From the human T2T-CHM13v2.0 reference genome, Homo sapiens, in the NCBI RefSeq assembly GCF_009914755.1, contig NC_060936.1: DNA of 64,000 bases; one strand, given 5' to 3'. The translations under genes were made by a program, and so were the position numbers. Under the pieces are notes generated by a model. The model was not told the DNA's origin. It saw only the letters and a program-made list of their open reading frames with translations, and searched no databases. Positions within the stretch are counted from its first letter, which is position 1; each line of letters begins with the position of its first letter. Of this stretch, positions 26,801-29,574 are shown in pieces.

Positions 26801-29405
26801 CTGAATGGGCAAAAACTGGAAGAATTCCCCTTGAAAACTGGCACAAGACAGGGATGCCCTCTCTCACCACTCCTATTCAACATAGTGTTGGAAGTTCTGG
26901 CCAGGGCAATTAGGCAGGAGAAGGAAATAAAGGGTATTCAATTAGGAAAAGAGGAAGTCAAATTGTCCCTGTTTGCAGATGACATGATTGTATATGTAGA
27001 AAACCCCATCGTCTCAGCCCAAAATCTCCTCAAGCTGATAAGCAACTTCAGCAAAGTCTCAGGATACAAAATCAATGTACAAAAATCACAAGCATTCTTA
27101 TACACCAATAACAGACAAACAGAGAGCCAAATCATGAGTGAACTCCCATTCACAATTGCTTCAAAGAGAATAAAATACCTAGGAATCCAACTTACAAGAG
27201 ATGTGAAGGACCTCTTCAAGGAGAACTACAAACCACTGCTCAATGAAATAAAACAGGATACAAACAAATGGAAGAACATTCCATGCTCATGGGTAGGAAG
27301 AATCAATATTGTGAAAATGGCCATACTGCCCAAGGTAATTTATAGATTAAATGCCATCCCCATCAAGCTACCAATGACTTTCTTCACAGAATTGGAAAAA
27401 AACTACTTTAAAGTTCATATGGAACCAAAAAAGAGCCCGCACCTCCAGGTCAATTCTAAGCCAAAAGAACAAAGCTGGAGGCATCAAGCTACCTGACTTC
27501 AAACTATACTACAAGGCTACAGTAACCAAAACAGCATGGTACTGGTACCAAAACAGAGATATAGATCAATGGAACAGAACAGAGCCCTCAGAAATAATGC
27601 CGCATATCTACAACTATCTGATCTTTGACAAACCTGACAAAAACAAGAAATGGGGAAAGGATTCCCTATTTAATAAATGGTGCTGGGAAAACTGGCTAGC
27701 CATATGTAGAAAGCTGAAACTGGATCCCTTCCTTACACCTTAGACAAAAATTAATTCAAGATGGATTAAAGACTTACATGTTAGACCTAAAACCATAAAA
27801 ACCCTAGAAGAAAACCTAGGCAATACCATTCAGGACATAGGCATGGGCAAGGACTTCATGTCTACAACACCAAAAGCAATGGCAACAAAAGCCAAAATGG
27901 ACAAATGGGATCTAATTAAACTAAAGAGCTTCTGCACAGCAAAAGAAACTACCATCAGAGTGAACAGGCAACCTACAGAATGGGAGAAAATTTTTGCAAG
28001 CTACTCATCTGACAAAGGGCTAATATCCAGAATCTACAATGAACTCAAACAAATTTACAAGCAAAAAACAAACAACCCCATCAAAAAGTGGGCGAAGGAT
28101 ATGAACAGACACTTCTCAAAAGAAGACATTTATGCAGCCAAAAAACACATGAAAAAATGCTCACCATCACTGGCCATCAGAGAAATGCAAATCAAAACCA
28201 CAATGAGATACCATCTCACACCAGTTAGAATGGCGATCATTAAAAAGTCAGGAAACAACAGGTGCTGGAGAGGATGTGGAGAAATAGGAACACTTTTACA
28301 CTGTTGGTGGGAATGTAAACTAGTTCAACCATTGTGGAAGTCAGTCTGGCAATTCCTCAGGGATCTAGAACTAGAAATACCATTTGACCCAGCAATCCCA
28401 TTACTGGGTATATACCCAAAGGATTATAAATCGTGCTGCTATAAAGACACATGCACACGTATGTTTATAGCGGCACTATTCACAATAGCAAAGACTTGGA
28501 ACCAACCCAAATGTCCAACAATGATAGACTGGATTAAGAAAATGTGGCACATATACACCATGGAATACTATGCAGCCATAAAAAATGATGAGTTCATGTC
28601 CTTTGTAGGGACATGGATGAAACTGGAAACCATCATTCTCAGCAAACTATCGCAAGGACAAAAAAACCAAACACCGCATATTCTCACTCATAGGTGGGAA
28701 TTGAACAATGAGAACAAATGGACACAGGAAGGGGAACATCACACTCTGGGGCCTGTTGTGGGGTGCGGGGAGTGGGGAGGGATAGCATTAGGAGATATAC
28801 CTAATGTAAATGACGGGTTAATGGGTGCAGCACACCAACATGGCACAGGTATACATATGTAACAAACCTGCATGTTGTGCACATGTACCCTAAAACTTAA
28901 AGTATAATAATAATAAAATTAAAATAAATAAATAAATAAAAATAATTAATGCATAAATCAAAGACCTTGTTGTATGAAAATACCACTGAAATAGATATTT
29001 TTAAAGTCCTTCAGAGAGAAAAAATCCGAACTGAGAGAAAATTCAAAGATATAGTAATACAAATGAGAAACTAAATTTGAACATAGATGTGGAAGAGATT
29101 ATAATTCAAGGTTGAGAATGTAATGAATGCTATCACATTTGAAAGTAATAATAAAGTTTCCTAAGAAAACAGAATTCAAAAAGAGGTGGAATGATTATAT
29201 AGAACAAGAGCCATTAGTAATTTTTTAAATTATGTAATAAATGGATCCAATTTGGTTCTGAGTTAATGAAAATAATGTTTGCTAGGATATCTAACTTTCA
29301 TTTTATCCTGCAAGAAACTCATCAAAACATACTTCATATCCAGACTCTTAAACTGAGAAGCAGTAGTCAAAATAATAAATTTCACTCTAACACTAAAATA
29401 AATAA
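23820..29405 (+). mobile_element. L1PA4/5-like element: spliced 5' end (SpIRE type) plus 3' transduction
   Basis: TSD ataaataaatactttcttca at 23800-23819 and 29406-29425; splice junction AACTGAG|GAACGCAG at 23844/23845; L1 body ends ~28945, then non-L1-tail sequence and a second A-rich tail. Confidence 0.92.
24860..27496 (+). pseudogene. L1 ORF2 remnant, 878-aa open frame covering endonuclease and RT
   Basis: [17 protein letters not shown] start, IQET, GDFN, SDH, FADD motifs; frameshift in the A-run at ~27400, later stop ~27741; C-terminal part in ORF 27843-28862. Confidence 0.93.
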
Positions 29406-29574
29406 ATAAATAAATACTTTCTTCAACAAAAACTGAACTGATTCATCACCAATAGATTGACCCTGAAAAAAATATTGAAAAAAGTTCTTCAGAAAGAAAG
29501 AAGTGATACAGGTGAGAAACTCCAAGCTACATAAAAAAAGAAAGAGCATTAGAGAAGGAATACATTGAGGTACA

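What the first reader, a model, noticed from the sequence alone, without database searches (positions are those of the whole stretch)
28945..29425. ~450-bp 3' transduction on the same spliced L1
Seen: the L1 tail ends ~28945 but the target-site duplicate (ataaataaatactttcttca, 23800-23819) reappears only at 29406-29425. In between are ~450 bp of unrelated sequence with AATAAA at 29374-29379 and a second (AAAT)n tail starting ~15 nt later. The host L1M resumes after the TSD. Inference: read-through transcription moved DNA flanking the source element. One RNA was therefore both spliced and read-through, and the tag should identify its parent L1.
Basis: partly seen in the sequence, partly recalled or inferred. 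Interest (0 to 1): 0.78.

Follow-up and report, generated by a model that had tools for sequence, protein, structure and literature searches.

The report
Spliced L1 carrying chromosome-11 flanking DNA
An old, already catalogued spliced L1 retrotransposon upstream of ST8SIA1 carries about 457 bases copied from chromosome 11 behind its tail, an ordinary 3' transduction that the published catalogue missed and whose parent L1 no longer exists at the source site.

Summary
An exact 20-nt repeat (23800-23819 and 29406-29425; 0.01 expected by chance) brackets one inserted block. The block is a 5'-truncated, 97/976-spliced L1, an A-rich tail, 457 nt of non-L1 DNA (28939-29395), AATAAA at 29374-29379 and a 10-nt (AAAT)n tail.

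The host is an old L1 that runs straight across the repeat. In 21 of 29 paralogous copies the two flanks are collinear, and in 0 of 29 is the segment present.

The segment has one paralogue, chr11:31,637,843-31,638,305. It differs by 11 substitutions and one 6-nt gap (2.4%) and runs on into unique DNA past the cleavage site. So chr11 is the parent and an RNA carried the copy.

No L1 lies at or within 10 kb of the chr11 site. An older AluS-like element abuts the junction. The tag therefore names the parent locus, not a parent L1, and no sibling copies exist.

The best reading is a 3' transduction from a source L1 allele absent from this assembly (about 0.75). A template-switch chimera (0.12) or a second retrocopy insertion (0.06) remain possible.

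The element is SpIRE(97/976)-9 of Larson et al. 2018, listed there with "No" transduction and a 6-bp TSD. That annotation needs correcting. Interest is low.

The parts
23800..23819 (+). 5' copy of the target-site duplication (20 nt), made of host old-L1 sequence
   Evidence: Exact repeat of 29406-29425. It aligns to the ..GAAATAAAGACTTTCTC.. stretch of 13 paralogous host-family copies.
23820..23844 (+). L1 5'UTR remnant (5'-truncated; starts GGTGATTTCTGC..) up to the splice donor (..CTGAG)
   Evidence: The same junction string appears in the published SpIRE(97/976) clones and in clone 9 itself.
23845..28919 (+). L1 body from the ORF1 splice acceptor (GAACGCAG..) to the L1 3' end; subfamily PA4 according to the published table
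   Evidence: The last 1 kb is 96-97% identical to the best of 40 scored L1 copies.
28920..28938 (+). Internal A-rich (AAAT)n tail between the L1 end and the chr11-derived DNA. The boundary is uncertain by about 5 nt, because 28934-28938 could already be chr11-derived with one mismatch.
28939..29395 (+). 457-nt segment copied from chr11:31,637,843-31,638,305 (+), the transduced DNA
   Evidence: It is the only other match in the genome. It differs by 11 substitutions and one 6-nt gap over 457 aligned bases. It is absent from 29 of 29 host-family copies.
29374..29379 (+). AATAAA polyadenylation signal that was used. It is also present in the chr11 parent.
   Evidence: Homology to chr11 stops 16 nt downstream, at ..ACACTA.
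29396..29405 (+). Second, terminal (AAAT)n tail, 10 nt. It merges into the A-rich start of the TSD.
29406..29425 (+). 3' copy of the target-site duplication; the host old L1 continues from 29426
   Evidence: The right flank 29426-29573 is collinear with the left flank in 21 of 29 host-family copies.

Best explanation
A full-length L1 of the PA4 generation once sat on chromosome 11. Its site was the 3' edge of an older AluS-like element, about 7.5 kb upstream of the first ELP4-like coding exon and antisense to the IMMP1L-like gene.

One of its transcripts was spliced inside the element, from 5'UTR nt 97 to ORF1 nt 976. It also ran past the weak L1 polyadenylation signal and two further AATAAA hexamers. 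It was cleaved 16 nt after a third AATAAA, 457 nt into the flank.

L1 proteins supplied in trans reverse-transcribed that RNA at a nick in an old L1 about 7 kb upstream of ST8SIA1. Copying stopped about 22 nt short of the splice donor. A 20-nt target-site duplication formed.

The source L1 allele is not in T2T-CHM13. Most likely it never reached fixation. Precise loss through recombination of its own TSDs is a second possibility.

Shown here:
- the composite insert and its TSD;
- the chr11 origin of the segment;
- the RNA-type 3' end;
- the similar age of the L1 and the segment;
- the absence of the source L1.

Inferred: that an L1 once sat at the chr11 junction and drove the transcript.
For: 1. 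One insertion block. The exact 20-nt TSD has a chance expectation of 0.01. The host old L1 is contiguous across it. The right flank was found in 25 of 29 paralogous copies and is collinear with the left flank within 15 nt in 21 of 29. The segment was found in 0 of 29. An alignment of 13 of those copies shows that the TSD is host sequence.

2. Origin. The segment has exactly one other match in the 3.1-Gb assembly, on chr11 (2 candidates, 2 scored).

3. Direction and RNA intermediate. The chr11 copy continues into unique DNA on both sides. The chr12 copy stops 16 nt after a shared AATAAA and is followed by an A-rich tail.

4. The junction looks like an L1 insertion site. Homology begins at AAAATAAT.., so the opposite strand reads TTTT/C at that point. 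TTTT/C is listed as a cleavage site for 3 elements in the part of the published table that I read. The neighbouring Alu, with its 15-nt TSD beginning 7 nt upstream, shows that L1 endonuclease did cut here.

5. Same age. The segment differs from its parent at 11 of 457 sites, 2.41% pairwise or about 1.2% per lineage. The last 1 kb of the L1 differs from the majority state of the 12 nearest copies at 16 non-CpG and 4 CpG-type sites of 998, or 1.6% non-CpG.

6. No host-gene transcript offers itself. The segment's sense strand lies upstream of the + strand PAXNEB/ELP4-like exons (first at 31,645,761). It is antisense to the - strand Peptidase_S26/IMMP1L-like exons.

7. Base rate. 466 of 5,311 (8.8%) polymorphic human L1 insertions carry transductions, and most L1-mediated ones (82.2%; 350) are 3' (PMC12350158, passages). 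Spliced L1s with transductions are already listed.
Against: The confirmatory feature is missing. No L1 lies at the chr11 junction. A BLAST of 10 kb on each side against this L1 gave only two old fragments, 68% identity over 580 nt and 74% over 109 nt.

The junction abuts an Alu that is clearly older than the event. The Alu shows 40 of 291 differences from an Alu majority sequence, 14 of them transversions. The L1 and the segment show about 1.2-1.6% per lineage. So the lost L1 must have landed within 7 nt of a pre-existing Alu TSD boundary. That is plausible for an A-rich site, but it is a coincidence that a template switch at an A-rich stretch would also explain.

No sibling insertion shares the tag. 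No L1 copy stands out as a close relative: the best are 96-97% identical among 40 scored of 4,887 candidates.

The terminal tail is only 10 nt, and both tails are (AAAT)n. The exact borders of tail, TSD and chr11 homology therefore cannot be fixed to the base.
Confidence: 0.75

Rival explanations
1. Template-switch (RNA recombination) chimera made in one insertion event. Reverse transcription began in trans on the poly(A) tail of an unrelated polyadenylated chr11 transcript and copied 457 nt. At the A-rich stretch next to the Alu tail it jumped to the poly(A) end of a spliced L1 RNA. No L1 ever sat on chr11.
For: There is no L1 at or near the chr11 site. The switch point is an A-rich stretch (AAAATAAT, next to an Alu A-tail), where a T-rich cDNA end could pair with an L1 poly(A) tail. 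A recent preprint uses absence of an L1 at the donor gene to argue for recombination of two RNAs in 5' L1 chimeras (10.1101/2025.02.02.635956, passages). The L1 and the segment have the same age, as this model also predicts.
Against: The model needs priming on a non-L1 RNA followed by a jump onto an L1 RNA. That reverses the order described for the known chimeras, where the L1 RNA is the primary template (introduction passage). No + strand gene is evident at the donor site: it is upstream of the ELP4-like exons and antisense to the IMMP1L-like exons. Transductions are far commoner, at 8.8% of L1 insertions. The junction sits on a TTTT/C site next to a proven endonuclease target. A source L1 would need that; a jump would not.
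Confidence: 0.12
2. Two independent events. The spliced L1 inserted first with the 20-nt TSD. Later a 5'-truncated retrocopy of a chr11 transcript inserted into its A-rich tail. The second insertion's own TSD is hidden in the (AAAT)n repeats on both sides.
For: A-rich tails are favoured L1 endonuclease targets (established knowledge, recalled). Both sides of the segment are (AAAT)n, so a short second TSD could not be seen.
Against: Only 10 nt lie between the end of the segment and the outer TSD. They would have to hold a second poly(A) tail, a second TSD and the rest of the first tail. The segment (about 1.2% per lineage) and the L1 (1.6% non-CpG) have the same age within error. The model also needs an unannotated + strand donor transcript.
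Confidence: 0.06
3. The published reading (Larson et al. 2018, S1 Table and S1 Data). The segment is native chr12 flank, the TSD is the 6-bp ATAAAT, 12 nt at the 5' junction are untemplated, and there is no transduction.
For: ATAAAT does occur at both places. The authors themselves note that the degenerate tail makes the empty site hard to rebuild.
Against: The host old L1 continues at 29426, not at 28951. The segment is in 0 of 29 paralogous copies, and the flanks are collinear in 21 of 29. A 20-nt exact TSD replaces the 6-bp one and removes the need for untemplated bases. The segment has a chr11 parent and ends at that parent's poly(A) site.
Confidence: 0.01

Closest known systems
L1 3' transduction (Moran 1999; Goodier 2000; Pickeral 2000, all recalled; operational definition in PMC12350158 Methods)
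   Same: An L1 3' end with its own tail is followed by unique non-L1 DNA, a downstream AATAAA and a second tail, all inside one TSD. The extra DNA maps to a single locus elsewhere.
   Different: The mapped locus carries no L1 in this assembly, so the progenitor is inferred. There is no transduction family (no siblings).
SpIRE(97/976)-9, PA4, hg38 chr12:22,341,736-22,346,998 (Larson et al. 2018, PLoS Biol, PMC5860796, S1 Table sheet 4 and S1 Data)
   Same: It is this very element. The flank, the 5' junction and the splice junction in the 'filled site' text match window 23760 onward.
   Different: The catalogue lists TSD 6, '5' 12 untemp' and Transduction 'No', and rebuilds the empty site through the chr11-derived DNA. 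Here the TSD is 20 nt, no untemplated bases are needed, and 457 nt are transduced.
Other spliced L1s with transductions in the same table: SpIRE(97/622)-13 (705 bp, other copy on chr5, 96.1%), SpIRE(97-790)-3 (186 bp), and non-reference SpIRE(97-790)-2 (39 bp, next to a full-length L1PA1)
   Same: One RNA was both spliced within the L1 and read through at the 3' end. For 97/622-13 the evidence is likewise a single diverged copy elsewhere.
   Different: This would be the first 97/976-class member with a transduction among the 11 listed, all of which are marked 'No'.
Chimeric retrocopies made by template switching or RNA ligation (U6/L1 and mRNA/L1 chimeras; 10.1101/2025.02.02.635956, passages)
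   Same: Two RNA-derived parts lie in the same orientation within one TSD, and the donor locus of the non-L1 part lacks an L1.
   Different: In the catalogued chimeras the foreign part is 5' of the L1. Here it is 3' of a complete L1 tail and ends at a genomic poly(A) site, which is the pattern of read-through.

Membership tests
L1 3' transduction | An L1 3' end with an A-rich tail is followed directly by non-L1 sequence | tested here: met
   The L1 ends at 28919, the tail runs to about 28938, and the segment 28939-29395 matches nothing in the L1
L1 3' transduction | The extra sequence ends in a second poly(A) tail a short distance after a polyadenylation signal | tested here: met
   AATAAA at 29374-29379, then 16 nt, then the A-rich tail 29396-29405. 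The parent locus has the same signal but no tail
L1 3' transduction | One target-site duplication encloses the L1 plus the extra sequence | tested here: met
   20-nt exact repeat with 0.01 expected. Host repeat collinear across it in 21 of 29 copies; segment in 0 of 29
L1 3' transduction | The extra sequence maps to a unique locus elsewhere in the genome | tested here: met
   The single other match is chr11:31,637,843-31,638,305, with 2.41% substitutions
L1 3' transduction | At that locus the sequence lies immediately 3' of a full-length L1. This is confirmatory rather than defining: source alleles can be polymorphic or lost. | tested here: not met
   No L1 at the junction, and only old fragments of 68% and 74% identity within 10 kb. 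Only one human assembly could be examined.
SpIRE 97/976 (spliced integrated retrotransposed L1) | 5'UTR sequence ending ..CTGAG is joined directly to ORF1 sequence GAACGCAG.. | tested here: met
   The junction lies at 23844/23845. The same junction string appears in published clone 1 and clone 9
SpIRE 97/976 (spliced integrated retrotransposed L1) | Hallmarks of endonuclease-dependent insertion: TSD, tail, T-rich cleavage site | tested here: met
   The TSD and the tails are as above. The cleavage site reads TTAT/C on the opposite strand, as the catalogue also states
Template-switch chimeric retrocopy | Two unrelated RNAs are joined within one TSD, and the donor locus shows no contiguity between them | tested here: inconclusive
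   The donor locus lacks an L1, which fits. An unfixed source L1 gives the same picture, so outgroup genomes are needed.

The most novel reading that the evidence does not exclude
The insert is not a read-through product. It is a 3' L1 chimera: reverse transcription started in trans on an unannotated polyadenylated chr11 RNA and then jumped onto the poly(A) end of a spliced L1 RNA at an A-rich stretch beside an Alu tail. That would be an 'L1-5' / cellular-RNA-3'' class, the mirror image of U6/L1 chimeras. Such cases would be routinely mis-scored as transductions whenever the donor site lacks an L1.
Probability: 0.12. Interest if true: 0.45.

Novelty: new member of a known kind. Interest (0 to 1): 0.2.

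Why it matters
The finding matters only modestly, in three ways.

1. It corrects one entry of a published catalogue. SpIRE(97/976)-9 should read a 20-nt TSD, no untemplated bases and a 457-nt transduction from chr11. That makes it the first 97/976-class spliced L1 with a transduction among the 11 listed.

2. It preserves a trace of an L1 progenitor locus that is empty in today's reference. This illustrates that tags on old L1s often point to vanished source alleles.

3. It shows a practical test for disputed L1 borders when no outgroup genome is at hand: check whether the two flanks are collinear in paralogous copies of the host repeat.

No effect on ST8SIA1 is suggested. The insert lies about 7 kb upstream of exon 1, on the opposite strand.

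Tried and rejected
- Source L1 near the chr11 site. I fetched 10 kb on each side and compared them with this L1. Only two old fragments turned up.

- Sibling insertions sharing the tag. There are none: 2 places in the genome, self included.

- A parent or sibling L1 found by similarity of the last 1 kb. The best non-self hits are 96-97% identical and none stands out. None of the 11 fetched has the tag downstream. Only 40 of 4,887 candidates were scored, so a closer copy could have been missed.

- Dating the chr11 Alu against a majority sequence of 33 Alu copies. One of the 33 is the same Alu fetched twice through overlapping loci. The majority sequence keeps only 11 CpGs, so the 'non-CpG' figure of 11.2% is inflated. 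I therefore relied on the total count (40 of 291) and on transversions (14 of 291, some in the A-rich linker and tail). The conclusion 'Alu older than the event' is firm only as a several-fold difference.

- Pickeral et al. 2000 was not held. Szak et al. 2003 and Goodier et al. 2000 were not read, so statements about them are recalled.

- Segmental duplication or DNA-level capture of the segment was rejected. The copy ends at a poly(A) site with a tail and begins at an L1 tail.

- Transfer from chr12 to chr11 was rejected. The chr11 copy is embedded in unique DNA without tails.

Full report
**What is in the window**

The string ATAAATAAATACTTTCTTCA lies at 23800-23819 and again at 29406-29425. 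With up to two mismatches allowed, these are the only two matches in 64 kb. Shuffles expect 0.01, and none of 100 reached two. The repeat finder extends the pair to 31 nt at 84% (family D2), but the extension is A-rich and may be tail.

At 23820 an L1 begins inside its 5'UTR (GGTGATTTCTGC..). After ..CTGAG at 23844 it continues with ORF1 sequence (GAACGCAG..). This is the known 97/976 splice junction.

The L1 ends at 28919 and is followed by an (AAAT)n-like tail. Non-L1 sequence follows, with AATAAA at 29374-29379 and two unused AATAAA hexamers at 29150 and 29236. Sixteen bases after the used hexamer a 10-nt (AAAT)n tail runs into the second repeat copy.

**Is the whole block one insertion?**

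The flanks belong to an old L1. I searched the assembly with the left flank (23420-23819). Forty of 1,398 candidates were scored, and I fetched 29 non-self copies that are 72-77% identical. I then compared three pieces with them.

- The right flank 29426-29573 matched in 25 of 29 copies.
- It lay collinear with the left-flank match, within 15 nt of the expected distance, in 21 of 29.
- Three more copies (L009, L018, L025) had the two flanks 308-391 nt further apart, which is the size of an Alu insertion.
- One copy (L010) was off by 23 nt.
- Four copies (L012, L024, L030, L031) had no right-flank hit.
- The 449-nt interior of the segment (28947-29395) matched in 0 of 29.

I aligned 13 of the collinear copies with the two window pieces, which were entered separately. 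The repeat is host sequence (host copies read ..GAAATAAAGACTTTCTC-AGACAAACAAAAACTGA..), and the host continues at 29426. So 23820-29405 is inserted DNA bracketed by a true target-site duplication.

**Where the extra DNA comes from**

A search of the 3.1-Gb assembly with 28946-29405 found two places: itself and chr11:31,637,850-31,638,305 on the + strand. A pairwise alignment fixes the homologous run as window 28939-29395 against chr11:31,637,843-31,638,305. There are 11 substitutions (8 transitions, 3 transversions) and one 6-nt gap over 457 aligned bases, which is 2.41% with a standard error of 0.72%.

The chr11 copy carries the same AATAAA. After ..ACACTA it continues into unrelated unique DNA, whereas the chr12 copy switches to the A-rich tail. 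So chr11 is the parent, and the copy passed through a polyadenylated RNA.

**The source site has no L1**

Immediately upstream of the chr11 homology lies an Alu (L002 1166-1486). Its 15-nt TSD, AGAAATGAAAATAAT, lies at L002 1151-1165 and 1487-1501. The homology with the window begins 7 nt into the 3' TSD copy, or 2 nt in if one G/A mismatch is allowed. Upstream of the Alu there is non-L1 DNA.

I compared 10 kb on each side with the window's L1. This gave only one 580-nt match at 68% and one 109-nt match at 74%, both old L1 debris. No other locus carries the tag.

**Relative ages**

The Alu differs from a majority sequence of 33 Alu copies at 40 of 291 positions, 14 of them transversions. That majority sequence is rough, and some differences lie in the A-rich linker and tail. 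By comparison:

- the segment shows about 1.2% per lineage;
- the last 1 kb of the L1 differs from the majority state of itself plus its 11 nearest copies at 16 non-CpG and 4 CpG-type sites of 998. This is a lower bound, because the copies were chosen for similarity.

Two conclusions follow. The Alu was already in place when the RNA was made. The L1 and the segment have the same age within error, which argues for one event rather than two.

A pairwise 2.4% lies in the range of divergences among apes. That comparison is recalled and was not computed here.

**Gene context of the donor**

Pfam PAXNEB matches mark ELP4-like exons on the + strand of chr11, the first at 31,645,761. Peptidase_S26 matches mark IMMP1L-like exons on the - strand at 31,569,284 and 31,592,126. 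The gene names, and the head-to-head arrangement of the two genes, are recalled.

The donor segment therefore lies about 7.5 kb upstream of the + strand gene and antisense to the - strand gene. No known host transcript supplies a + strand RNA there. A + strand L1 promoter would.

**Mechanism**

The simplest account is a classical 3' transduction. An L1 inserted at the A-rich site beside the Alu. The opposite strand there reads TTTT/C at the homology boundary, a cleavage-site variant listed for three elements in the part of the published table that I read. That L1's transcript was spliced 97/976, read through and polyadenylated 457 nt downstream, and was then inserted on chr12. The source allele was later lost or never fixed.

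Base rates favour this account. Of 5,311 polymorphic human L1 insertions, 466 (8.8%) carry transductions, and most L1-mediated ones (82.2%; 350) are 3' (PMC12350158, passages).

What is not shown is the source L1 itself. A template switch from a chr11 RNA to an L1 RNA would leave the same structure. So would a second retrocopy insertion into the L1 tail. A recent preprint uses donor-site emptiness to argue for RNA recombination in 5' chimeras (10.1101/2025.02.02.635956, passages).

I put the three readings at 0.75, 0.12 and 0.06.

**Comparison with print**

The element is SpIRE(97/976)-9 of Larson et al. 2018 (PMC5860796). I read part 2 of S1 Table in full, passages of part 1 and passages of S1 Data. 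The entry reads: PA4, hg38 chr12:22,341,736-22,346,998, length 5,101, cleavage site TTAT/C, TSD 6, '5' 12 untemp', Transduction 'No'. A note says the degenerate tail hampers reconstruction.

The 'empty site' they rebuilt runs from GAAAGATAAAT straight into CAAAGACCTTG.., that is, into the chr11-derived DNA. Searches show that this reconstruction is wrong.

The same table lists other spliced L1s with transductions: 97/622-13, 97-790-3 and non-reference 97-790-2. So 'spliced and read-through' is documented. All 11 listed 97/976 elements are marked 'No'.

I found no paper that describes this transduction. The searches were made, and none of them targeted this locus by name. Older catalogues (Szak 2003, Goodier 2000, Pickeral 2000) could not be read here and might list it.

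**Verdict**

It is a new member of a known class and a correction to one catalogue entry. The parent L1 is not recoverable from this assembly.

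Noticed in passing
L002 1166-1486 (chr11:31,637,515-31,637,835): The AluS-like element at the donor junction has perfect 15-nt TSDs. Its middle A-rich linker has expanded into about nine AAAT units. Its A-tail is interrupted by G every 5-6 nt.
   Followed up: partly
window 29574-29955: An Alu sits in the host old L1 about 150 nt downstream of the 3' TSD (family D1, shows its two arms). It shortens the right flank usable for the continuity test to 148 nt.
   Followed up: no
L044 and L045 (chrX:153,738,395-153,739,392 + and chrX:153,577,439-153,578,436 -): Two of the nearest L1 relatives have the same identity to the query and the same 90 nt downstream. 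They are therefore copies within an inverted duplication on chrX about 160 kb apart, not independent insertions.
   Followed up: no
window 23819/29426 junction compared with L006-L034: In 10 of the 21 collinear host-family copies the two flanks lie exactly 4 nt further apart than in the rebuilt empty site, and in 3-5 nt for 15 of them. In the alignment the host copies read ..TTTCTC-AGACAAACAAA.. where the window has ..TTTCTTCA|ACAAA... So a few host bases may have been lost at the insertion, or this copy already lacked them.
   Followed up: partly
window 29010-29020 against L002 1566-1571: The single 6-nt gap (TCAAAG, present only in chr11) lies in a ..CCTTCA[AAGTCA]GAGAG.. context. It looks like a small local duplication or slippage in one lineage.
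   Followed up: no
L003 4015-4591 and L004 5611-5716 (chr11): Old L1 fragments (68% and 74% identical to the window's L1) are the only L1-like DNA within 10 kb of the donor site.
   Followed up: no
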